Positions 24,729 to 50,606 of a DNA stretch of 64,000 nt are shown in pieces. This DNA comes from Escherichia coli. Lineage in GTDB: Bacteria; Pseudomonadota; Gammaproteobacteria; Enterobacterales; Enterobacteriaceae. The notes beneath the pieces are model-generated. The model searched no databases and was not told the DNA's origin. It saw only the letters and a program-made list of their open reading frames with translations. Each line of letters begins with the position of its first letter. Position 1 is the stretch's first letter. Both the position numbers and the translations under genes were made by a program. The stretch lies in assembly GCF_013315695.1 (NCBI RefSeq), contig NZ_CP054353.1. The stretch is one strand, 5' to 3'.

Positions 24729-25055
24729 ATGAAAAGACGCCTTTTACTACTTTTTCTGTTATCTGTCCTGGCAGTGGGATGCTCGCAGCAAAAAGCTGAT
24801 GAGCCCCGGCAATTAGTGACGGTGTATCCACGATATCCGGAATATGCTGCAGCAAATTATATCAAGGGGCTGGTTGAGGTTAAGTTCGATATTGGTGCTG
24901 ATGGGACTGTGACACGGATCGTTTTTCTCCGCTCAGAGCCTCATAATTTGTTTCGTGATGAAGTGGTGAAGGCCATGGCGAAATGGCGATTTGAAAAGAA
25001 TCGCCCCTGTCAGGGAGTGAAGAGACAATTTATCTTTACGCCGTCACGTCCCTGA
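24729..25055 (+). CDS. Lipoprotein with a TonB C-terminal-like domain, 108 aa
   Basis: It has a signal peptide plus lipobox (MKRRLLLLFLLSVLAVGC). The TonB_C signature is YPRYPEYAAANYIKGLVEVKFDIGADGTVTRIVFLRSEP..FRDEVVKAMAKWRFE. An AGGA RBS is present. Confidence 0.7.
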   Translation: MKRRLLLLFLLSVLAVGCSQQKADEPRQLVTVYPRYPEYAAANYIKGLVEVKFDIGADGTVTRIVFLRSEPHNLFRDEVVKAMAKWRFEKNRPCQGVKRQFIFTPSRP

Positions 25056-25147
25056 TGCTTCCAGGTAGAGAGGGGCTGGACGCAGGAGAAAAATGAAAGA
25101 GCCAGCGGTTATATTTTTGTCATGGCTGACGAGGAATGATGGAAGAA

Positions 25148-25170
25148 GGCGTTGTATGCCACACAACGCC
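25148..25170. terminator. Hairpin between convergent genes (GGCGTTGT-7 nt-ACAACGCC)
   Basis: Read directly from the sequence; it sits between the stop at 25055 (+) and the stop at 25178 (-). Confidence 0.55.
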
Positions 25171-25177
25171 TCACTGT

Positions 25178-25531
25178 TCATTTCTTCTTTTTCTCTGGTG
25201 GAACCCGATGAATAAGAGTTGCACTGGTTTCCGATGAGATGGCGATATACTCGGGCAAAGTATGCTGGCAGTTTTCCAACTGGTCAAAAATACCTGCTCT
25301 CGTCTGTTGCAATGCCTGCAGCATGCGGCGGCAATGCGCCTTGCTTTTACTAACCATCTTTCCTTCCTCTATCAGTCGCTGCGTGAACTCATCATGTAAT
25401 ACCAGGTAAATGCGGATGTTATCGGTTTTGGCTACGCAGCATAGTACAAAACGGACAGGTGCATCCCGGGACGGGGGAGGCGTCACATGTCCCTGTGATG
25501 GTTGTTCCGGGTAATGCACTGTGTGGGGCAT
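25178..25531 (-). CDS. Hypothetical ORF (117 aa; an internal start at 25357 with a strong GAGGAAGGA RBS would give 59 aa)
   Basis: ORF track entry. It overlaps ORF 25419..25670 in another frame and may be the 3' part of a frameshifted gene. Confidence 0.4.
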   Translation of the reverse strand: MPHTVHYPEQPSQGHVTPPPSRDAPVRFVLCCVAKTDNIRIYLVLHDEFTQRLIEEGKMVSKSKAHCRRMLQALQQTRAGIFDQLENCQHTLPEYIAISSETSATLIHRVPPEKKKK

Positions 25532-25670
25532 AAAAATGTCCGATAATTTTACTTTCTACCGCAGTTAGTTGATTCGTTGGTCCTGGTAGCACATTGGGCG
25601 AGGATTTAAATGCCAGGCAACTGAAGGATGATGTTGCAAGGGAGATAGCGAGAATATTTCTGATTTTCAT
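25419..25670 (-). CDS. Hypothetical secreted peptide ORF (83 aa) with an N-terminal signal sequence; possibly the 5' part of a frameshifted gene
   Basis: The signal peptide is MKIRNILAISLATSSFSCLA, and an AGAGG RBS lies upstream. The ORF ends within the overlap with 25178..25531. Confidence 0.4.
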   Translation of the reverse strand: MKIRNILAISLATSSFSCLAFKSSPNVLPGPTNQLTAVESKIIGHFYAPHSALPGTTITGTCDASPVPGCTCPFCTMLRSQNR

Positions 25671-25818
25671 TTGATGATGCCTCTGTGTGAAATGACGGTA
25701 AACGACGCACTTGTGCCGGCACATAATAGCAAGCACCATAATAGATCAGATTCGATTCTTGCTGTAAGTGATAATCATTCTCGTTTTCGGGTCCTTTCCG
25801 TCGATCCAACAGGTTACG

Positions 25819-25830
25819 GGGCGGCGACCT
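25819..25830 (+). other. cos: cosN cohesive-end sequence GGGCGGCGACCT (identical to lambda)
   Basis: The context ACGGGGCGGCGACCTCGCGGGTTTTCGCTATTTATGAAAATTTTCCGG matches the lambda genome left end as remembered. Confidence 0.9.
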
Positions 25831-25865
25831 CGCGGGTTTTCGCTATTTATGAAAATTTTCCGGGA

Positions 25866-25966
25866 ACCATGTCCGGTTTCTCTTCAAGTTAACTATATGA
25901 AAAATAAAAAAAGAGGTCTTCTGTGAACCGGACATGCACAAAAAATAGACATGTAAGCCGGACATG
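25866..25966 (+). promoter_or_regulatory. cosB-like terminase-binding region: three A(A/G)CCGGACATG repeats around an A-rich bend
   Basis: The repeats lie at 25866-25876 (inverted), 25926-25936 and 25956-25966. The A-tract ATATGAAAAATAAAAAAAGAGG lies between the first and second. Confidence 0.6.
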
Positions 25967-26013
25967 ACCGGTTTTGTTGTGATTGTGAAGTGAGAGTTTT
26001 TGCGAGGTGAGGA

Positions 26014-26523
26014 GTGGCTACGCAGACTGAAGTTGCCAGGCATTTAAGTCTGACCGATCGCCAGCTTCGCAGATTGCAGAAATTGCCGGGTGCCCCGATA
26101 TCGAATAAGCGAGGGCAACTGGATCTGGATGCCTGGCGCGATTTTTACATATCGTATCTGAGAAGAAGTAAAAACGATGTGCCTGATGGCGATAGCGAAG
26201 ACGACTATGAGGAGAAATTGCTTATTGCCAGATGGGAACTGACAGCAGAACAGGCTGTTACACAGCAGTTAAAAAATGAGGTGTCAAAAGGAAAACTTAT
26301 TGACACCGGGTTCTGTATTTTTGCCCTCAGCAAGCTGGCAATGGCGTTATCCAGTACGCTTGATTCCATCCCTTTATCCATGCAGCGACAGTTTCCTGAT
26401 TTAACACCGCGCCATCTTGACCATCTGAAAACCCTTATTGCGAAGGGGGCAAATCAGTGTGCGCGGGCGGGGGATAAATTACCGGATTTACTCGATGAAT
26501 ATATCAGAGCAACAACTGAATAA
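26014..26523 (+). CDS. nu1: Terminase small subunit (Nu1-like), 169 aa
   Basis: It has an N-terminal HTH (TEVARHLSLTDRQLRRLQK) and C-terminal similarity to lambda Nu1 (..SIPLSMQRQFPDLTPRHLDHLKTLIAKG..). The position is right after cos. Confidence 0.85.
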   Translation: MATQTEVARHLSLTDRQLRRLQKLPGAPISNKRGQLDLDAWRDFYISYLRRSKNDVPDGDSEDDYEEKLLIARWELTAEQAVTQQLKNEVSKGKLIDTGFCIFALSKLAMALSSTLDSIPLSMQRQFPDLTPRHLDHLKTLIAKGANQCARAGDKLPDLLDEYIRATTE

Positions 26524-28412
26524 TATGATGAGTGCTGTCACAACAGCATTACAGCCCCTGATAAGGGCATTGCCGGTGACGCCAGTTGAATGGGCTGATC
26601 AAAATTATTATCTGCCTAAAGAATCTTCATATGGTGAGGGAGAATGGAAAACGCTGCCGTTCCAGATCGCCATCATGAACAGCATGGGGAATGATCAGAT
26701 CCGGACTGTTAATCTGATTAAATCTGCCCGTGTTGGCTATACAAAGATGTTGCTGGGGGTGGTCGGGTATTTTATTGAGCATAAATCCCGAAACAGTCTG
26801 CTTTTTCAGCCCACGGATTCTGCCGCTGAAGATTTTATGAAGTCTCACGTGGAGGCGACGATTCGGGATGTGCCATGTCTGAAAGACCTTTCTCCATGGC
26901 TGGGGCGTAAACATCGTGACAATACTCTCACGCTGAAACGCTTTTCATCGGGTGTGGGCTTCTGGTGCCTGGGCGGCGCTGCCGCCAAAAACTACCGTGA
27001 AAAATCCGTGGACGTGGTCTGCTATGACGAACTTTCCTCGTTCGAACCGGATGTCGAAAAAGAGGGTTCGCCAACCCTGCTTGGGGATAAACGTATTGAG
27101 GGCTCTGTATGGCCCAAATCCATTCGCGGCTCGACGCCTAAAATCAAAGGCACCTGCCAGATCGAAAAAGCGGCCAACGAGTCGGCGCATTTCATGCGTT
27201 TTTATGTGCCCTGCCCGCACTGTGGGGAGGCGCAGTATCTGAAATTTGGCGATGAGTCCACGCCTTTTGGCCTTAAATGGGAGAAGGACAGCCCCGAAAG
27301 CGTTTTCTACCTCTGTGAACATCATGGCTGCGTGATCCATCAGTCTGAGCTTGACCAGAGCAACGGGCGGTGGATCTGTGAAAACACGGGGATGTGGACC
27401 CGCGACGGTCTGACGTTTTTCAGCGCTGCGGATAATGAAATTCCGCCGCCGCGCTCCATCACATTCCATATCTGGACGGCGTACAGTCCGTTCACCACCT
27501 GGGTACAGATTGTCTATGACTGGCTGGATGCACTGAAAGATCCCAACGGCCTGAAAACCTTTGTGAACACCACGCTGGGCGAGACCTGGGAAGAGGCCGT
27601 GGGCGAAAAACTCGATCACCAGGTGCTGATGGATAAGGTTGTGCGTTACACGGCTGCGGTGCCTTCCCGGGTGGTTTATCTGACGGCGGGCATTGACTCG
27701 CAGCGAAACCGTTTTGAGATGTATGTCTGGGGATGGGCTCCGGGAGAGGAAGCCTTTCTGGTGGATAAAATCATCATTATGGGGCGTCCCGATGAGGAAG
27801 AGACGCTGTTACGTGTGGATGTGGCGATCAACAAAAAATACCGCCATGCAGACGGAACCGAAATGACCATTTCCCGTGTCTGCTGGGACACCGGGGGGAA
27901 TTGTCTATCAGAGGTCAAAAAAACACGGTGTTTTCCGGGTGCTGCCGGTAAAAGGTGCATCTGTTTATGGCAAGCCGGTGATCACCATGCCAAAAACCCG
28001 CAATCAGCGGGGCGTGTATCTGTGCGAAGTGGGGACGGACACCGCAAAAGAAATTCTCTATGCCCGTATGAAAGCCGATCCCACGCCTGCGGATGAAGCC
28101 ACGTCGTATGCCATCCGTTTTCCTGATGATCCGGAGATTTTTTCGCAGACAGAGGCGCAGCAACTGGTGGCGGAAGAGCTTGTGGAGAAGTGGGAAAAAG
28201 GAAAGATGCGTCTGCTGTGGGATAACAAAAAGCGGCGTAACGAAGCGCTGGACTGCCTGGTGTATGCCTACGCGGCATTACGTGTGTCCGTGCAACGCTG
28301 GCAGCTTGATCTGGCTGTACTGGCAAAATCCCGGGAAGAAGAGACGACCCGGCCAACCCTTAAAGAACTGGCAGCGAAGCTGTCCGGAGGAGTGAATGGT
28401 TACAGTCGCTGA
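26495..28412 (+). pseudogene. A: Terminase large subunit (gpA-like), reading frame broken near 27899
   Basis: Frame 1 (MNISEQQLNN...CWDTGG) and frame 2 (IVYQRSKKHGVFRVLPVKGASVYGKPV...) together align with lambda gpA end to end. At the junction the lambda residues IDPT are missing and one extra nt remains (GGGGGGAATTGTC). Confidence 0.85.
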
Positions 28413-45572: not shown

Positions 45573-46172
45573 ATGCGTAAATTATGTGCAGCCATTTTGT
45601 CCGCAGCCATCTGTCTGTCCGTATCCGGTGCGCCTGCATGGGCGTCTGAACATCAGTCCACACTGAGCGCGGGGTATCTTCATGCCCGTACGAACGCTCC
45701 CGGCAGCGATAATCTGAACGGGATTAACGTGAAATACCGTTATGAGTTTACGGACACGCTGGGGCTGATTACGTCCTTCAGTTATGCCAATGCTGAGGAT
45801 GAGCAAAAAACGCACTACAACGATACCCGCTGGCATGAAGATTCCGTGCGTAACCGCTGGTTCAGCGTGATGGCGGGGCCGTCTGTACGCGTGAATGAAT
45901 GGTTCAGCGCGTATGCGATGGTGGGTGTGGCTTACAGCCGTGTGTCGACTTTCTCCGGGGATTATCTCCGCGTAACTGACAACAAGGGGAAAACGCACGA
46001 TGTGCTGACCGGAAGTGATGACGGTCGCCACAGCAACACGTCTCTGGCGTGGGGGGCTGGCGTGCAGTTTAACCCGACCGAATCCGTGGCCATTGATATT
46101 GCTTATGAAGGCTCCGGTAGTGGTGACTGGCGCACTGACGGTTTCATCGTGGGTGTCGGTTATAAGTTCTGA
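45573..46172 (+). CDS. lom: Lom/Ail-family outer-membrane beta-barrel protein, 199 aa
   Basis: It has a signal peptide, a C-terminal ..GVGYKF, and the position after J, as in lambda lom. Confidence 0.88.
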   Translation: MRKLCAAILSAAICLSVSGAPAWASEHQSTLSAGYLHARTNAPGSDNLNGINVKYRYEFTDTLGLITSFSYANAEDEQKTHYNDTRWHEDSVRNRWFSVMAGPSVRVNEWFSAYAMVGVAYSRVSTFSGDYLRVTDNKGKTHDVLTGSDDGRHSNTSLAWGAGVQFNPTESVAIDIAYEGSGSGDWRTDGFIVGVGYKF

Positions 46173-46236
46173 TTAGCCAGGTAACACAGTGTTATGACAG
46201 CCCGCCGGTTCAGGCGGGCTTTTTTGTGGAGTGGAT

Positions 46237-48303
46237 ATGGCAGCAGTAAAAATCTCAGGTGTGCTGAAAGATGGTGCGGGAAAACCAATACAGAACTGCA
46301 CTATTCAACTGAAGGCAAAGCGTAACAGCACCACGGTACTGGTGAACACGGTGGCCTCTGAAAATCCGGATGAAGCCGGGCGTTACAGCATGGATGTTGA
46401 GTATGGCCAGTACAGCGTCACCCTGCTGGTTGAAGGTTTTCCACCTTCACATGCCGGGACCATTACCGTCTATGAAGGTTCCAGACCAGGTACGCTGAAT
46501 GATTTTCTCGGTGCCATGACGGAGGATGATGTTCGTCCGGAGGCACTGCGCCGTTTTGAGCTGATGGTGAATGAAGTGGCACGTCATGCCGGAGCGTCAT
46601 CACAGAGTGCAGCGGCGGCAAAGAAATCCGAAACGGCAGCAGCCTCATCGAAGAATGCGGCGAAAACCTCAGAAACGAATGCAGCTAACAGCGCACAGGC
46701 GGCAGCGGCCTCGCAGACTGCATCGGCAAACTCCGCGACAGCAGCCAAAAAATCAGAAACCAGCGCGAAAAATAGCGAGACAGCCACAAAGGCCAGCGAA
46801 AAAAACGCAAAATCCAGCCAGACGGCAGCGAAAACCAGTGAGACGAATGCCAAAGACAGTGAAGCCAACGCAAAGGTGAGCGAAACAGCGGCGGCGAACT
46901 CGGCGAAAGCATCGGCAGCAAGCCAGACGGCAGCAAAAGCAAGTGAAGATGCTGCCAGAGAATACGCAAACCAGACAGCAGAGCCGTACAGATATGTTTT
47001 ACAGCCGCTGCCGGATGTGTGGATACCCTTTAATGATTCGCTGGATATGATTACGGGCTATTCTCCGGGTTATAAAAAAGTGAAGATTGGTGATAATGTG
47101 GTTCAGGTTGCCAGTGATAAACAGGTTAATTTCAGTCGCGCATCAACGGCAACATATATCAACAAATCTGGCGAACTGAAAACGGCGGAAATTAATGAGC
47201 CACGATTTGAGTGTGATGGCCTGCTTATTGAGGGGCAAAGAACGAACTTCTTCCCGAACAGTACAGACCCTTCGAAGTGGAATAAGTCAACTTCACTGGA
47301 CGTTACAGAAACAGGCACAGATAGTTTCGGGTTTAATTATGGCCGGTTTGTCGTACAGGATTCGATTGTTGGTACAAGTAAAGCGCATACCATTATCGGA
47401 CTGTATTCGAGTACCGGAGGGGTTGATACTTCAGGGGACGAAAAGCATGTAACTATATCCTGTCGGGTAAAAAGTGAAGTTGATAATATCGCCGTTCGTA
47501 TTTTATTTGAACATTATGATGGGGAGGTAAGGACATCAATAGGAGCAGCAAACCTGAACCTTACCACCCGCATAATTAGCAAGACAGGTCAGACAAGCCG
47601 TGTTACAGCAAGGTCTGTTAAGGATGATGCAACTGGCTGGATATTTTTTGAGGCTACATTAAAAGCAGATACAACAGAAAATACGGTTGGTGGTTTTGTC
47701 CAGTATTCTCCGGATACAGGGCAGATGGTTGCATCAGGGGATTATCTCGATGTAACCACTCCACAGATTGAGGCTGGTACAGGCGCATCATCTTTTATTG
47801 TTACGGGGACGGCACCGGTAACGCGGGCAAGCGATATGGTTACAGTTCCGATTAAGAATAATCTTTATAATCTTCCTTTTACGGTTCTTTGTGAGGTACA
47901 TAAGAACTGGTATAAAACGCCAAATGCAGCACCGCGTGTTTTTGACACATACCGGCATCAGGCAGATGCGGGGATCGTAATGGGGTTTGGTTCATCAGGT
48001 GGGTACGACGGTTTTCCGTATTGCGATATAGGTGGTTCAGACCGACGAATAAATGAAAATGCCGGGCTGGAAAAAATGCTTATTGGTATGCGGGTAAAGT
48101 CCGAACGGTCCACATGTGTAGTCAGTAACGGTAAGTTAAGCAGCGAAACTAAAACCAAATGGGAATATATCCGGAGTACAGCAACCATTCGCATTGGTGG
48201 ACAAACTACAGCAGGATTACGCCATTTATTTGGGCATGTGAGGAATTTTCGTCTCTGGCATAAAGAGCTAACAGATGCGCAGCTTGGGGAGGTTGTGGAG
48301 TGA
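46237..48303 (+). CDS. stf: Side tail fibre (Stf-like N-terminus and Ala/Ser-rich repeat shaft; divergent C-terminal receptor-binding half), 688 aa
   Basis: MAAVKISGVLKDGAGKPIQNCTIQLKAKRNSTTVLVNTVASENPDEAGRYSMDVEYGQYSV aligns with lambda Stf/orf-401. The KxSET(N/A)A repeats span about 46600-46960. Confidence 0.85.
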   Translation: MAAVKISGVLKDGAGKPIQNCTIQLKAKRNSTTVLVNTVASENPDEAGRYSMDVEYGQYSVTLLVEGFPPSHAGTITVYEGSRPGTLNDFLGAMTEDDVRPEALRRFELMVNEVARHAGASSQSAAAAKKSETAAASSKNAAKTSETNAANSAQAAAASQTASANSATAAKKSETSAKNSETATKASEKNAKSSQTAAKTSETNAKDSEANAKVSETAAANSAKASAASQTAAKASEDAAREYANQTAEPYRYVLQPLPDVWIPFNDSLDMITGYSPGYKKVKIGDNVVQVASDKQVNFSRASTATYINKSGELKTAEINEPRFECDGLLIEGQRTNFFPNSTDPSKWNKSTSLDVTETGTDSFGFNYGRFVVQDSIVGTSKAHTIIGLYSSTGGVDTSGDEKHVTISCRVKSEVDNIAVRILFEHYDGEVRTSIGAANLNLTTRIISKTGQTSRVTARSVKDDATGWIFFEATLKADTTENTVGGFVQYSPDTGQMVASGDYLDVTTPQIEAGTGASSFIVTGTAPVTRASDMVTVPIKNNLYNLPFTVLCEVHKNWYKTPNAAPRVFDTYRHQADAGIVMGFGSSGGYDGFPYCDIGGSDRRINENAGLEKMLIGMRVKSERSTCVVSNGKLSSETKTKWEYIRSTATIRIGGQTTAGLRHLFGHVRNFRLWHKELTDAQLGEVVE

Positions 48304-48578
48304 GAGATTTCACGTTGCGTTTCAGTGATAAAGCAGATTTCAGGGCATTTCTCAGGAAACTTAACTGGGAAGAGGACGAAGAGCTGCAGAATGCCGTTCT
48401 GGTTGATGAGATTGGTTTTACGTTCAGGGAGACAGATGTTTCTGATGACGGAGAACCAGAATACACGCGAAACGAAGGGTACTTTGTTAATATCCGTCTT
48501 CTTGACGATGGATTTGATGATTCCGTGTTCCGTGAGTGGGTGGTTACACCAGAGCGCCCGCTCAGGGAGTGGTTTTAA
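48300..48578 (+). CDS. Hypothetical acidic protein, 92 aa, in the tail-fibre-assembly (tfa) position but not Tfa-like
   Basis: ORF track entry. The start overlaps the stf stop (GTGA). Confidence 0.5.
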   Translation: MRDFTLRFSDKADFRAFLRKLNWEEDEELQNAVLVDEIGFTFRETDVSDDGEPEYTRNEGYFVNIRLLDDGFDDSVFREWVVTPERPLREWF

Positions 48579-48587
48579 GGATAGCAG

Positions 48588-48875
48588 ATGGATATCACGT
48601 CGATACTTCATGCGCTTTGTGCCGTAGCGGTGCAGGTACTGGCTGGTCTTTTTACCGGAAACTGGGCTTACGGTGCGATAGCCGGTTGTACGTTCTTCAT
48701 TGCGCGTGAACACACCCAGGCAGAATATCGCTGGATTGAAATGTTTGGGCATGGCAAGAGGATTAACATGCCGTGGTGGGGCGGTTTTGATCCGCGCGTG
48801 TGGGATGTGGCAAGCCTGATGGATTTTGCTGTGCCGGTGGTGGCGTGTCTGCTGATCTGGATGTTGATCCGTTAA
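48588..48875 (+). CDS. Hypothetical membrane protein (about 3 hydrophobic spans), 95 aa
   Basis: ORF track entry. It is the last gene before attR. Confidence 0.5.
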   Translation: MDITSILHALCAVAVQVLAGLFTGNWAYGAIAGCTFFIAREHTQAEYRWIEMFGHGKRINMPWWGGFDPRVWDVASLMDFAVPVVACLLIWMLIR

Positions 48876-48890
48876 ATATAAAAAGTAAAA

Positions 48891-48926
48891 AGCCGCAGTA
48901 ACTTGTCATGACAGGATACTGCGGCT
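48891..48926. terminator. 10-bp hairpin after the last late gene; the U tract is better on the reverse strand
   Basis: AGCCGCAGTA-16 nt-TACTGCGGCT. The plus strand continues GGCTGG, while the reverse strand continues TTTTACTTTT. Confidence 0.55.
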
Positions 48927-49112
48927 GGCTGGTTAACTTTCGATAGTGCGAGTATTGAATGATTTCCAGCTGTTACTGATTTTATATAACTGCAGTGGAA
49001 TTATTCAACACACAGGCAAAACGGAATAAGCTGAGAAAAAAAGCGTGCTTTCCCAATCTGGGGTAAATCACATCTGAATGACACCTGAAAACAGGTGGTG
49101 GCCTCAAGAAGG

Positions 49113-49185
49113 CTTGGAATATTCTTCTTTAATGTTATGTAATTTATTGATTTTTCGTGTACGATTTTAAGACATTTATTCCAAG
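49113..49185. promoter_or_regulatory. Right-arm copies of the CTTGGAAT Int arm-type motif
   Basis: CTTGGAAT occurs at 49113-49120 and inverted (ATTCCAAG) at 49178-49185. TTGATTTTTCG direct repeats lie at 49147-49157 and 49201-49211. Confidence 0.45.
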
Positions 49186-49224
49186 AAAAATTTTTAACTC
49201 TTTGATTTTTCGACTCTGTATCAT

Positions 49225-49286
49225 CGGTCTCGAAAACCGGAGTAGGGGCAACTCTACCGGGGGTTCAAATCCCCCTCTCTCCGCCA
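49225..49286 (+). repeat. attR core: displaced 3' fragment of serU (62 nt)
   Basis: It matches 1775-1836 except for G>A and C>T in the variable-arm stem. Confidence 0.9.
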
Positions 49287-49830
49287 CTTTATCAATGACT
49301 TATCTCCCGACTTCCCGCCTTGCTTTTCCTAAACAGAACAATCGTAGAATATTCTTGAAGGGTTAGATCGTCACTGTTTTCTGTTCGATACTGTGACATT
49401 CAGCACTTGATTCGCTATGGAGCTGACAGGAAGGTTTCGAGCGAAAATCTACAGTTATTCAGTCGTTTTCTTATCGATCACCATTATTCTTTTAGACATT
49501 GATCCTATGAAACTGCCGCAAAGTTGCTGGCGGGAACTGAAGTTGCGTAGAGAAGGGGTCAATAATTGAGCCAAAAAAGGAACGCGGCCGTCAGATTAAA
49601 GCCGCGGGACAAAGTCCATAATTTCCAAGAGTTGTTGAATTTCCCAGCTTTTTTGAAAGCCTTTGTATTATACTAACAAGTAAAAAAGGTTTAAACACCA
49701 AAATTAACCTATATTTCTGGTTAGCTTTACCATGACAGATGACTTGCTCCTGGAAACATTTGCGCTGCCAGTCTGTATGGCTGAGTTGTGTATTTATTGT
49801 TCGCCTTTTTCGCAGTTTTTTTCTACAGAC

Positions 49831-49867
49831 ATAATAAAAAAGACACGACTCAAGTATGAGCGTGTCT
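49831..49867 (-). terminator. Rho-independent terminator downstream of zinT
   Basis: The reverse strand reads AGACACG-13 nt-CGTGTCT followed by TTTTTTATTAT. Confidence 0.75.
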
Positions 49868-49955
49868 GAGTTTGTCTTACTTATTTGTCTTGGTAAATTA
49901 TTGTTGTTACTACCAGGCACTGTTCTGTTAAATAACTGAAGTCAGCGCAAAAAAA

Positions 49956-50606
49956 TCAATGAGACATCATCTCCTCGACCACTTCTTCGCTACTCAACTG
50001 ATAGGGATAATACGTTGGCCAGTTTTCCATTTCATTCAATAAAGATTGCTGGGAATCATTACCCATAAAAATGTGAAAATGAGATGATTTTCGTGGTGCA
50101 ATTATATGATCGCTAAATTGTATATATTTAGGGGCTTTGCTTTCAGGATCTTTACATTCGAATAAGTAACGAACGCCTTTCTTGCCTGATTTATAGGTGA
50201 GTATTTTGTATCCATCGTAATCATATTTACAGGATGTTGTTTCATTATTTCTATGGAATTCGACAATGCCGTCCTCAATGCCAATCATTTCGATATCTGT
50301 CGCATAACCTTTGCGATAATAATCTTTAATTTCAGCAAATGGTTTGGTTTTATCTGCATCCGCTTTCTTCTGAAAGACGGGATCAAGTTTGCCACTTTGC
50401 AGTAAAGGGTAAACGGATTGCCAGACTCCATCCCAGTCACTGAGCGTTCGGTTTTGTACATTGGTATCATCAAAAACACCATTAGCAGCTTTTTGTTCGA
50501 CCTCTGTTAAGGGTTTGCCGTGTGAGTGATGACCATGCGAAAAGGCAGGAGCGCTAACAATAAAGACACCTAAAGCAACAGCCAGTTTATGAAGACGAAT
50601 CGCCAA
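49956..50606 (-). CDS. zinT: Periplasmic zinc/cadmium-binding protein ZinT (YodA), 216 aa
   Basis: The signal peptide is followed by HGHHSHG; the full-length match is to remembered ZinT. Confidence 0.95.

What the first reader, a model, noticed from the sequence alone, without database searches (positions are those of the whole stretch)
24729..25055. Prophage lipoprotein carrying a TonB C-terminal domain at the bor position
The 108-aa product has a classic lipoprotein signal (LLSVLAVGC). It then has a compact domain with the TonB_C signature: YP.YP...A....G.V.V.F.I...G.V..V.......P..LF..EV..A...W.F. It lacks the TonB N-terminal anchor and the proline-rich spacer. A periplasm-facing, membrane-tethered TonB C-domain could bind the TonB boxes of outer-membrane transporters (FhuA, BtuB, FepA and others). 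In doing so it could compete with host TonB. By analogy with the known FhuA-blocking phage lipoproteins Llp (T5) and Cor (phi80/HK022/N15), it might exclude TonB-dependent phages and colicins. That function is my inference, not established. The gene has its own RBS and sits in a classic moron location: after Rz/Rz1, convergent with a reverse-strand gene, with a hairpin terminator between them.
Basis: partly seen in the sequence, partly recalled or inferred. Interest (0 to 1): 0.66.

Follow-up and report, generated by a model that had tools for sequence, protein, structure and literature searches.

The report
Phage lipoprotein made of TonB's tip
A small, well-conserved gene of lambda-like phages, identical in classic phage 21 and present in about 30% of complete E. 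coli genomes, encodes an outer-membrane lipoprotein that is little more than the receptor-docking tip of the host protein TonB; databases already annotate it but nobody has tested its function, and it most plausibly jams TonB-dependent import.

Summary
Window 24729..25055(+) is a real 108-aa gene. It has an N-terminal lipoprotein signal (MKRRLLLLFLLSVLAVG|C) followed directly by a complete TonB C-terminal domain. Pfam TonB_C scores E=7e-13. The alignment to E. coli TonB 150-230 has no gaps. A high-confidence AlphaFold model superposes on TonB from the BtuB:TonB complex at 1.0 Å.

The protein is 100% identical to phage 21 gene CPT_21_73 and occurs in 1616 of 5426 complete E. coli genomes. It is under purifying selection (dN/dS 0.13). 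It belongs to a distinct family of small TonB_C lipoproteins, some of which sit in ordinary chromosomal contexts in Raoultella, Klebsiella, Serratia and Pantoea.

Some peripheral claims are weaker. Bor often lies alongside the gene rather than being replaced by it. The "convergent reverse gene" is doubtful. The hairpin is not a canonical terminator. No promoter of its own was found, and the gene is always co-oriented with the late operon.

The proposed function, an uncoupled TonB decoy blocking TonB boxes, is plausible and has experimental precedent. It remains untested, and I found no paper on it. The gene is already catalogued; the possible mechanism would be new. Interest is moderate.

The parts
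24729..25055 (+). CDS of the 108-aa TonB_C lipoprotein. It is identical to phage 21 CPT_21_73 (UMO75484.1) and to RefSeq WP_000830178.1, 'TonB family protein'.
   Evidence: dN/dS 0.13 against the 72% allele
24719..24722 (+). Shine-Dalgarno AGGA, 6 nt upstream of the ATG
   Evidence: the RBS annotated in phage 21 is at the equivalent place
24729..24782 (+). Lipoprotein signal peptide (MKRR / LLLLFLLSVLAVG) and the lipidated Cys18. The +2 residue is Ser, which predicts Lol sorting to the outer membrane.
   Evidence: pattern match; Cys invariant and +2 never Asp in 29 homologs
24804..25040 (+). TonB C-terminal domain, residues 26-104, equivalent to E. coli TonB 153-231. It includes the PRxL segment, the YP motif, the aromatic core (F53, F75, W86, F88, F103), G59 and the beta3 strand (residues 94-103).
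24425..24612 (+). Conserved lambdoid boundary block between the lysis cassette and the gene. It is present in 402 phage records, most of which lack the TonB_C gene. It is not specific to this gene.
24613..24728 (+). Gene-specific 5' leader that travels with the CDS (about 65-70% identical in the JLK-2012 allele). It contains a conserved GATAAT at 24651-24656 but no recognisable -35 element. The 45-codon ORF 24574..24711 is not conserved as a protein.
25147..25171 (+). 9-bp hairpin (AGGCGTTGT-ATGCCAC-ACAACGCCT) 92 nt after the stop codon. It is not a canonical intrinsic terminator and lies outside the conserved module.
23945..24418 (+). Context: Rz i-spanin, with Rz1 o-spanin embedded at 24171..24356. 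The phage therefore already has a complete spanin pair.
25819..25830 (+). Context: cosN cohesive-end sequence GGGCGGCGACCT. The gene lies 763 bp from the right end of the mature phage genome, upstream of terS (26014..26523).

Best explanation
This is a genuine accessory gene of lambdoid phages. It encodes a mature lipoprotein of about 90 residues, predicted to be anchored in the inner leaflet of the outer membrane. The protein consists essentially of a TonB C-terminal domain with no membrane anchor, no proline-rich rod and no link to ExbB/ExbD.

The most likely mechanism is an uncoupled TonB decoy. The exposed beta3 edge strand pairs with the TonB boxes of outer-membrane TonB-dependent transporters such as FhuA, FepA, CirA and BtuB, and possibly with the TonB boxes of incoming group B colicins. 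That occupies the site the energised host TonB must grasp. The expected result is reduced TonB-dependent uptake of siderophores, colicins, microcins and TonB-dependent phages of the T1/phi80 type.

Shown here: the gene is real; it is under purifying selection; the lipobox is invariant; the TonB C-terminal fold includes beta3; and its position between the lysis and packaging genes is conserved.

Inferred: outer-membrane localisation, TonB-box binding, competition with TonB, the resulting phenotype, and the timing of expression. Timing is probably late, through read-through from pR'.
For: - Domain identity: TonB_C hits lie above the curated cutoffs. The alignment to E. coli TonB 150-230 is ungapped at about 41% identity and conserves PRxL, the YP motif, F180, G186, F202, W213, Y215 and F230 equivalents.
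- Fold: the AlphaFold model has mean pLDDT 87 and at least 96 across the domain. It superposes on TonB from the BtuB:TonB complex (2gsk_B: rmsd 1.0 Å, TM 0.92) and from the FhuA:TonB complex (2grx_C: 0.9 Å, TM 0.92).
- Binding site: in those complexes the TonB box pairs with beta3 (PMC11658791). Beta3 is present here (residues 94-103), and the protein ends 5 residues later.
- Localisation: Cys18 is invariant and the +2 residue is never Asp in 29 homologs. This places the protein where Llp acts on FhuA (bioRxiv 10.64898/2026.03.26.714494).
- Precedent: overexpressed periplasmic TonB domain inhibits transporter-mediated iron import. A TonB-box pentapeptide inhibits colicin killing and phi80 infection. 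Transporters compete for limiting TonB (all in PMC9841981).
- Selection and spread: dN/dS is 0.13. The gene is in 1616 of 5426 complete E. coli genomes. It keeps a fixed position across different lysis and packaging modules. It is intact in this prophage although terL carries an 11-bp frameshifting deletion.
Against: - No experiment or paper addresses this gene.
- No promoter of its own and no Fur box were found, and the gene is always co-oriented with the late operon. It may therefore be made only late in lytic growth, when protecting a lysogen from colicins or phages makes little sense.
- The protein clusters with a separate family of small lipoproteins rather than with true TonBs. Members of that family sit alone in ordinary chromosomal contexts with no transporter or ExbBD genes nearby, so the family's native partner may not be a TonB box.
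- TonB positions implicated in TonB-box and FhuA contacts differ here: Q160 becomes Y or L, and R166 becomes Y.
- A stoichiometric decoy must out-number abundant transporters.
- The 7-residue tether to the membrane may constrain docking geometry. This was not modelled.
- The protein has no match in PADLOC.
Confidence: 0.4

Rival explanations
1. The protein is an envelope lipoprotein whose partner is not a TonB box. The small TonB_C lipoprotein family would use the fold to bind something else, such as peptidoglycan or another periplasmic or outer-membrane protein strand. The phage copy would then modulate envelope properties, for example outer-membrane stability or a serum/stress phenotype like other right-end morons such as Bor.
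For: The family forms a clade distinct from true TonB C-terminal domains, with its own motifs (YPxYA, SEPxHLFD). Chromosomal members occur in Raoultella and Klebsiella next to a glycine-zipper lipoprotein and a DUF1440/YagU-like gene. In Serratia grimesii the gene lies between mltB-like and nhaB. In Pantoea it lies among metabolic genes. None has transporter or ExbBD neighbours. The gene sits in the same region as bor.
Against: The segments that contact the TonB box in TonB (the PRxL...YP N-terminal segment and beta3) are among the best conserved between this family and TonB. No alternative ligand is indicated by any result.
Confidence: 0.25
2. The protein poisons TonB rather than blocking the receptor. 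The outer-membrane-tethered domain would form a heterodimer with the C-terminal domain of host TonB, which is scarce, and trap it at the outer membrane. This would shut down all TonB-dependent transport at low stoichiometry.
For: TonB C-terminal fragments crystallise as dimers, and the model's best Foldseek match is the 1u07 structure. TonB periplasmic domains cycle through homodimeric states in vivo (bioRxiv 10.1101/2022.09.26.509584). TonB is limiting relative to transporters (PMC9841981).
Against: Identity to TonB is only about 41%. The title of PMC3005593 states that the dimeric crystal forms do not exist in vivo. No heterodimer modelling or interaction data are available.
Confidence: 0.12
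3. The protein is a lysis accessory or spanin-like protein, as the PHROG label 'Rz-like spanin' for phrog_1267 suggests. It would act late, with Rz/Rz1, in outer-membrane disruption or in lysis timing.
For: The best PHROG hit is phrog_1267 at E=5e-43, annotated as lysis / Rz-like spanin. It is an outer-membrane lipoprotein encoded immediately downstream of the spanins. It is co-oriented with the late operon and no promoter of its own was found.
Against: A complete Rz/Rz1 pair is already present. The protein is a folded TonB_C domain, not a short proline-rich o-spanin, and it lacks the C-terminal TMD of unimolecular spanins. bor or KilA-N genes can intervene between Rz and this gene. Homologs exist in non-phage chromosomal contexts. 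The PHROG label most likely derives from position-based annotation.
Confidence: 0.07
4. The ORF is a non-functional relic: a fragment of a captured tonB gene that merely hitchhikes in the phage right arm.
For: Older annotations call it 'partial tonB-like membrane protein' or 'TonB fragment'.
Against: dN/dS is 0.13 with dS about 1.4. The 108-aa length, the lipobox and the stop position are conserved in a 70% allele, and the lipoprotein architecture is kept at 41% identity in a Klebsiella phage. The domain is complete. It is not derived from E. coli tonB (41% identity, separate clade).
Confidence: 0.02

Closest known systems
C-terminal domain of E. coli TonB (residues ~150-239; PDB 2GSK, 2GRX, 1U07, 1XX3)
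   Same: Same fold: rmsd about 1 Å and TM 0.92. The alignment is ungapped at about 41% identity. The PRxL segment, YP motif, aromatic core, G186 equivalent and the beta3 strand that pairs with TonB boxes are all present. The net charge is similarly basic (+6).
   Different: There is no N-terminal TM helix and no Pro-rich rod, so no connection to ExbB/ExbD or the proton-motive force is possible. The protein is lipid-anchored, and predicted to sit in the outer rather than the inner membrane. It ends 5 residues after beta3. Q160 and R166 equivalents are Tyr. It falls far below the NCBIfam TonB equivalog cutoffs (69 bits against 315).
Engineered periplasmic TonB fragments (Howard, Herrmann, Stratilo & Braun 2001, J Bacteriol 183:5885)
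   Same: Both are a TonB periplasmic or C-terminal domain exported without its membrane anchor. Those fragments inhibit TonB-dependent iron import when overproduced (as summarised in PMC9841981). From my own recollection, not read here, they also inhibit phi80 infection and colicin M killing. This is the direct functional precedent for a decoy.
   Different: Those fragments are laboratory constructs of TonB itself, soluble in the periplasm and strongly overexpressed. This is a natural, diverged, lipid-anchored protein of unknown expression level. The original paper could not be read.
Phage superinfection-exclusion lipoproteins Llp (T5) and Cor (phi80, HK022, N15, T1)
   Same: All are small phage-encoded lipoproteins of the inner leaflet of the outer membrane that act, or would act, on the periplasmic face of a TonB-dependent transporter. 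Acylation confines them to the membrane plane. TonB and Llp compete for the FhuA periplasmic surface.
   Different: There is no sequence or fold relationship. Llp and Cor share their own fold, while this protein is a TonB_C domain. Llp is FhuA-specific and works allosterically on the extracellular loops. A TonB-box binder would be generic for all TonB-dependent transporters and would not block TonB-independent phages such as T5.
Small chromosomal TonB_C lipoproteins of Enterobacterales ('TonB family protein', ~103-135 aa; Raoultella, Klebsiella, Serratia, Erwinia, Pantoea, Rahnella)
   Same: Same architecture (lipobox plus a single TonB_C domain), same family motifs and same clade in the tree, at 35-49% identity.
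   Different: Those members are stand-alone chromosomal genes in non-phage contexts. Their function is also unknown, so membership gives no mechanism.
Lambda Bor / lambdoid right-end morons
   Same: Both are lipoprotein genes in the accessory region between Rz and cos. This gene is variably present among related phages and has lower GC than its flanks (45.8% against 50-54%).
   Different: Bor is on the opposite strand and is unrelated in sequence. It often co-occurs with this gene. This gene is co-oriented with the late operon and no promoter was detected.

Membership tests
TonB_C domain (Pfam PF03544 / TIGR01352) | HMM score above the curated gathering threshold | tested here: met
   PF03544 scores 49.2 bits against a cutoff of 24.6, E=7.3e-13. 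TIGR01352 scores 47.4 bits against 27.1.
TonB_C domain (Pfam PF03544 / TIGR01352) | [quoted passage not shown] | tested here: met
   The AlphaFold model has pLDDT 87. Foldseek gives 2gsk_B at rmsd 1.0 Å and TM 0.92, and 2grx_C at 0.9 Å and TM 0.92.
TonB_C domain (Pfam PF03544 / TIGR01352) | Conserved YP motif and aromatic/glycine core (TonB Y163, P164, F180, G186, F202, W213, Y215, F230) | tested here: met
   The equivalents Y36, P37, F53, G59, F75, W86, F88 and F103 are all present in the ungapped alignment.
TonB energy transducer (NCBIfam PRK10819 equivalogs) | N-terminal transmembrane anchor that couples to ExbB/ExbD | tested here: not met
   Homology covers only TonB 150-230. The N-terminus is a cleavable lipoprotein signal.
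TonB energy transducer (NCBIfam PRK10819 equivalogs) | Proline-rich periplasm-spanning spacer | tested here: not met
   Seven residues (SQQKADE) lie between Cys18 and the domain.
TonB energy transducer (NCBIfam PRK10819 equivalogs) | Score above the equivalog cutoff | tested here: not met
   The best score is 69.2 bits against a cutoff of 315.
Bacterial lipoprotein (signal peptidase II substrate) | Positively charged n-region, hydrophobic h-region and a lipobox ending in Cys | tested here: met
   MKRR / LLLLFLLSVLAVG / C18 matches a PS51257-type pattern. The Cys is invariant in 29 homologs. LipoP and SignalP were not available.
Bacterial lipoprotein (signal peptidase II substrate) | Actual lipidation and outer-membrane sorting | not testable with these tools
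   The +2 residue is Ser, and is S, T, A or V, never Asp, across the family. By the +2 rule (own knowledge) this predicts Lol-dependent outer-membrane sorting. Fractionation or palmitate labelling is needed.
Llp/Cor superinfection-exclusion lipoproteins | Shared Llp/Cor fold or sequence family | tested here: not met
   The significant PHROG hits (E <= 0.001) are phrog_1267 and a TonB-like family, phrog_34172. Weaker hits are two spanin-labelled and two unannotated families, none labelled Cor or Llp. All significant PDB fold matches are TonB C-terminal domains.
Llp/Cor superinfection-exclusion lipoproteins | Inactivation of FhuA and exclusion of FhuA-dependent phages | not testable with these tools
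   This requires phage plating and transport assays.
Spanins (o-spanin / u-spanin; PHROG label 'Rz-like spanin') | An o-spanin is a short proline-rich outer-membrane lipoprotein paired with an i-spanin. A u-spanin is a lipoprotein with a C-terminal TMD. | tested here: not met
   A separate Rz/Rz1 pair lies at 23945..24418 and 24171..24356. The protein is a folded TonB_C domain with no C-terminal hydrophobic segment.
Moron (autonomous accessory gene unit of lambdoid phages) | Variable presence between otherwise related phages, with discrete insertion boundaries | tested here: met
   The adjacent boundary block occurs in 402 phage records, but the gene occurs in only 15. Homology with the JLK-2012 allele ends exactly at the stop codon. 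GC is 45.8% against 50-54% in the flanks.
Moron (autonomous accessory gene unit of lambdoid phages) | Own promoter and terminator, allowing expression from the repressed prophage | tested here: inconclusive
   The scan found no + strand sigma-70 promoter, and my reading of the alignment found no promoter element conserved between alleles. The downstream hairpin is non-canonical and not conserved. Activator-dependent promoters cannot be excluded, so transcript mapping is needed.

The most novel reading that the evidence does not exclude
About 30% of sequenced E. coli would carry a phage-borne, outer-membrane-anchored 'anti-TonB'. This natural decoy would grasp the TonB boxes of all TonB-dependent transporters, or would trap TonB itself. 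It would lower entry of group B colicins, microcins, T1/phi80-type phages and siderophore-drug conjugates such as albomycin and cefiderocol. That would be a new class of exclusion and immunity mechanism, aimed at the energy-coupling step rather than at one receptor. The chromosomal homologs would be endogenous regulators of TonB-dependent transport.
Probability: 0.3. Interest if true: 0.75.

Novelty: new variant of a known kind. Interest (0 to 1): 0.5.

Why it matters
TonB-dependent transporters are the entry route for iron-siderophores, vitamin B12, group B colicins and microcins. They also admit several phages and the siderophore-antibiotic conjugates now in clinical use.

A generic blocker of TonB coupling, encoded by a prophage in roughly a third of E. 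coli genomes, could have several effects. It could shift competition between gut strains and change susceptibility to phages and bacteriocins. It could also modulate iron uptake or the MIC of siderophore drugs.

It would provide a natural protein template for TonB inhibition. It would also give a first functional handle on an uncharacterised family of small TonB_C lipoproteins in Enterobacterales.

If the gene is made only late in infection, its purpose there would be a new question in phage lysis and exit biology. The gene is in phage 21, a classic genetic system, so all of this is directly testable.

Tried and rejected
- Own promoter: the sigma-70 scan found nothing on the + strand in 24300-26100. 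Manual inspection of the three-allele alignment found only a conserved GATAAT with no -35 element.
- Iron regulation: the best Fur-box match is 11 of 19 positions, no better than shuffled sequence.
- Upstream conserved block as an RNA element or partner gene: there is no Rfam hit and the fold z-score is -0.9. The 45-codon ORF is truncated in the JLK-2012 allele. The block proved to be a common lambdoid boundary sequence present in 402 phage records.
- Defence-system membership: no PADLOC match.
- Cor in this prophage: none of the seven ORFs I scanned after J (45573..50606) matched a family labelled Cor; smaller ORFs in that stretch were not scanned. The receptor type of J was not pursued, because the gene is found with several different tail and head modules.
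- Operon clues from chromosomal homologs: there are no transporter, ExbBD or colicin genes nearby.
- Literature: nine full-text searches found no study of this gene or of any phage-encoded TonB-like decoy. Howard et al. 2001 (PMC99666) is not held.
- First AlphaFold run, with a 6-sequence alignment: low confidence, pLDDT 61. It was superseded by the 29-sequence run.
- Alignment-based scans of genome contigs failed twice for lack of a conserved stretch before a narrower alignment worked.
Full report

Yes. The + strand ORF runs from the ATG at 24729 to the TGA at 25053-25055 and encodes 108 aa. An AGGA Shine-Dalgarno lies 6 nt upstream.

The N-terminus has a charged n-region (MKRR), a hydrophobic core (LLLLFLLSVLAVG) and Cys18. 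It matches a PROSITE-type lipobox pattern.

The rest of the protein is a TonB C-terminal domain:
- Pfam PF03544 scores 49.2 bits against a cutoff of 24.6, E=7.3e-13.
- TIGR01352 scores 47.4 bits against a cutoff of 27.1.
- phmmer against PDB sequences gives E=1.4e-14 to E. coli TonB. The alignment of residues 23-103 to TonB 150-230 has no gaps, so phage residue n corresponds to TonB residue n+127.

Seven residues separate the lipidated Cys from the start of TonB homology. There is no TM anchor and no Pro-rich rod. Scores against the full-length TonB equivalog models are far below cutoff (69 bits against 315).

A first AlphaFold model from six close homologs was poor, with pLDDT 61. A 29-sequence family alignment gave mean pLDDT 87, and at least 96 across the domain. 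That model superposes on TonB from the BtuB:TonB complex (2gsk_B: rmsd 1.0 Å, TM 0.92) and from the FhuA:TonB complex (2grx_C: 0.9 Å, TM 0.92).

**2. Is it a real gene or a fragment?**

It is a real gene.
- An allele with about 70% protein identity, found in Stx1a phages and in JLK-2012, has the same 108-aa length, the same lipobox and the same C-terminal ...F-I-F-x-P-S-x-P ending.
- Between the two alleles dN/dS is 0.13, with dS 1.41 and dN 0.18.
- A 41%-identical homolog in Klebsiella phage ST13-OXA48phi12.4 is again a lipoprotein (LLGC|SS) with one TonB_C domain.
- Across 29 family members down to about 31% identity, Cys18 is invariant. The +2 residue is S, T, A or V and never Asp. [quoted passage not shown]

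**3. How common and how well known is it?**

- The protein is 100% identical to gene CPT_21_73 of classic lambdoid phage 21, annotated 'TonB C-terminal domain protein'. It is also identical to genes of phages ev017, Perceval and several ECOR-derived phages.
- RefSeq names it 'TonB family protein', WP_000830178.1.
- The gene is found in 1616 of 5426 complete E. coli genomes, and 1201 of those copies are at least 99% identical.
- Older records call it 'partial tonB-like membrane protein encoded within prophage CP-933N' or 'TonB fragment'. PHROGs files it in phrog_1267, labelled 'Rz-like spanin'.
- The phage 21 genome announcement does not discuss it.
- Nine full-text literature searches found no functional study of it, nor of any phage-encoded TonB-like decoy.

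The ORF and its domain are therefore already catalogued. Its function is not.

**4. Anatomy of the locus**

The window carries a lambda-like prophage. The gene order is holin (21729..), a DUF1327 ORF, endolysin (22930..23463), Rz (23945..24418) with embedded Rz1 (24171..24356), the TonB_C gene, cosN (GGGCGGCGACCT at 25819-25830), and then terS (26014..), terL and portal. The gene thus lies 763 bp from the right end of the mature genome.

In 80 IMG/VR contigs the gene is always co-oriented with the lysis and packaging genes. It always lies between Rz and the terminase genes. This holds with at least three endolysin/holin combinations and two unrelated packaging modules: the lambda Nu1/A type, and HNH plus terS/terL.

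In about 35 of the 80 contigs, and in phage 21 itself, bor(-) lies between Rz and this gene. The gene is therefore next to the bor slot, not in place of bor.

Homology with the JLK-2012 allele begins right after the Rz stop (24428) and ends exactly at the stop codon. The first ~185 nt (24425-24612) are a common lambdoid boundary block. It occurs in 402 phage records, most of which lack the gene. The gene-specific unit is therefore about 24613-25055, and its GC content is 45.8% against 50-54% in the flanks.

**5. Expression signals**

- The scan found no + strand sigma-70 promoter between 24300 and 26100, and no + strand terminator between Rz and the gene.
- Only a conserved GATAAT without a -35 element is visible in the allele alignment.
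- There is no Fur box, no Rfam match and no unusual RNA fold.
- The upstream 45-codon ORF is not conserved as a protein.
- The downstream hairpin at 25147-25171 is real. Its T-run is displaced, the scan did not call it, and it lies outside the conserved module.
- The 'convergent reverse gene' is an ORF (phrog_4843) that overlaps an opposite-strand ORF (phrog_3744). Neither has Pfam support, and curated annotations call only + strand ORFs there.

The simplest reading is that the gene is transcribed as part of the Q-dependent late transcript. A weak or activator-dependent promoter cannot be excluded.

**6. Family relationships**

An exhaustive HMMER search and a scan of species-representative genomes found many proteins of 103-135 aa with the same architecture. 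They occur in Raoultella, Klebsiella, Serratia, Erwinia, Pantoea, Rahnella and Pseudescherichia, and in an Alteromonadales genome.

In a neighbour-joining tree of the domain, these lipoproteins form a clade separate from genuine enterobacterial TonB C-terminal domains. The E. coli phage alleles are sister to the group containing the Klebsiella/Raoultella chromosomal members and the Klebsiella phage member.

Several members are clearly not in prophages:
- In Raoultella and Klebsiella the gene sits in a conserved locus: lacZ, lacI, a glycine-zipper lipoprotein, the TonB_C lipoprotein, then DUF1440.
- In Serratia grimesii it lies between an mltB-like gene, an FAA-hydrolase gene and nhaB.
- In Pantoea agglomerans it lies among metabolic genes.

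None has transporter or ExbBD neighbours. One Serratia member lies just downstream of a phage endolysin. The phage gene therefore belongs to an uncharacterised family of small outer-membrane TonB_C lipoproteins that moves between chromosomes and phages.

**7. Most likely mechanism**

[quoted passage not shown] The phage protein keeps the following features:
- beta3 (residues 94-103);
- the PRxL...YP segment preceding the domain;
- all core aromatic residues and the conserved glycine;
- a similar basic net charge.

It ends five residues after beta3 with two prolines, so nothing can cover that edge.

It cannot transduce energy, because it lacks the anchor and the rod. [quoted passage not shown] There, acylation confines the partners to two dimensions, and TonB and Llp compete for the periplasmic face of the receptor.

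Precedent exists in both directions. Overproduced periplasmic TonB domain inhibits transporter-mediated iron import. A TonB-box pentapeptide inhibits colicin killing and phi80 infection. TonB is limiting relative to transporters (PMC9841981).

I therefore favour an uncoupled TonB decoy that occupies TonB boxes (confidence 0.4). A variant in which it traps the scarce host TonB by heterodimerisation gets 0.12.

**8. Arguments against the decoy mechanism**

- Nothing here tests binding or phenotype.
- Apparent late-operon expression fits poorly with protection of lysogens.
- The family's chromosomal members have no link to TonB systems, so the native partner may differ (envelope-protein rival, 0.25).
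- TonB Q160 and R166 equivalents are Tyr. The JLK-2012 allele has Leu at the Q160 position, and Q160L is the classic TonB-box suppressor, so this is not necessarily adverse.
- A stoichiometric blocker must match abundant transporters.
- The short tether may constrain docking geometry.

The spanin reading (0.07) rests on a PHROG label and on position only. It is contradicted by the fold and by the presence of a complete Rz/Rz1 pair. The 'dead fragment' reading (0.02) is contradicted by the selection and conservation data.

**9. Verdict**

The structural interpretation is correct. The locus description is partly inaccurate. The functional hypothesis is reasonable but unproven.

The gene itself is already in the databases and belongs to a known domain family. 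The stand-alone, outer-membrane-lipoprotein format, and the possible anti-TonB role in a very widespread prophage gene, are uncharacterised. I class it as a new variant of a known kind, with moderate interest (0.5). It is directly testable in phage 21.

Noticed in passing
window ~27898 (terL ORFs 26438..28096 and 27876..28412): The large terminase gene carries an 11-bp deletion (ATCGATGGCGA) relative to an otherwise 98.6%-identical intact prophage in NZ_CP024886. The deletion splits terL into two frames, so this prophage is probably packaging-defective while the TonB_C gene remains intact.
   Followed up: partly
window 24425-24612: A 188-nt non-coding block just downstream of the lysis cassette is more conserved between phages than the neighbouring genes. 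It is over 90% identical in its first ~170 nt and occurs in 402 phage records, including lambda and many Stx phages. It has no Rfam hit, no unusual fold and no conserved ORF. It may be a recombination boundary or linker sequence.
   Followed up: partly
window 25670..25419 (- strand): A reverse-strand ORF begins with a signal-peptide-like N-terminus (MKIRNILAISLATSSFSCLA...) between the TonB_C gene and cos. It has no PHROG or Pfam hit, and the phage 21 and RefSeq records checked do not annotate it.
   Followed up: partly
window 25181..25357 (-) and 25262..25399 (+): Two overlapping opposite-strand small ORFs each match a PHROG family of unknown function (phrog_4843 and phrog_3744). At least one of these families is probably built from spurious ORF calls.
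   Followed up: no
window 22000..22893 (+): A 297-aa DUF1327 / phrog_1085 ORF of unknown function is inserted between the holin and the endolysin. The near-identical prophage in NZ_CP024886 has a YdfR-family gene at that place instead.
   Followed up: no
L085 5422-7298 (Raoultella ornithinolytica) and L004 1232-1858 (Klebsiella phage ST13-OXA48phi12.4): The chromosomal TonB_C lipoprotein of Raoultella and Klebsiella is flanked by a glycine-zipper lipoprotein and a DUF1440 (YagU-like) membrane protein. The Klebsiella phage that carries a TonB_C lipoprotein also carries a DUF1440 gene about 3 kb upstream. This could be a functional link or a trace of co-capture.
   Followed up: no
PHROGs phrog_1267: This PHROG family, labelled 'Rz-like spanin' in the lysis category, is in fact the TonB_C lipoprotein family. 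The window protein matches it at E=5e-43 over its full length. The label looks like a position-based mis-annotation that will propagate to phage genome annotations.
   Followed up: yes
window 19113..21089 (+): A 658-aa late-region ORF carries DUF1737, a SASA (sialate O-acetylesterase-like) domain and DUF6645. It lies upstream of the lysis cassette and is a typical accessory gene of Stx/lambdoid prophages.
   Followed up: no
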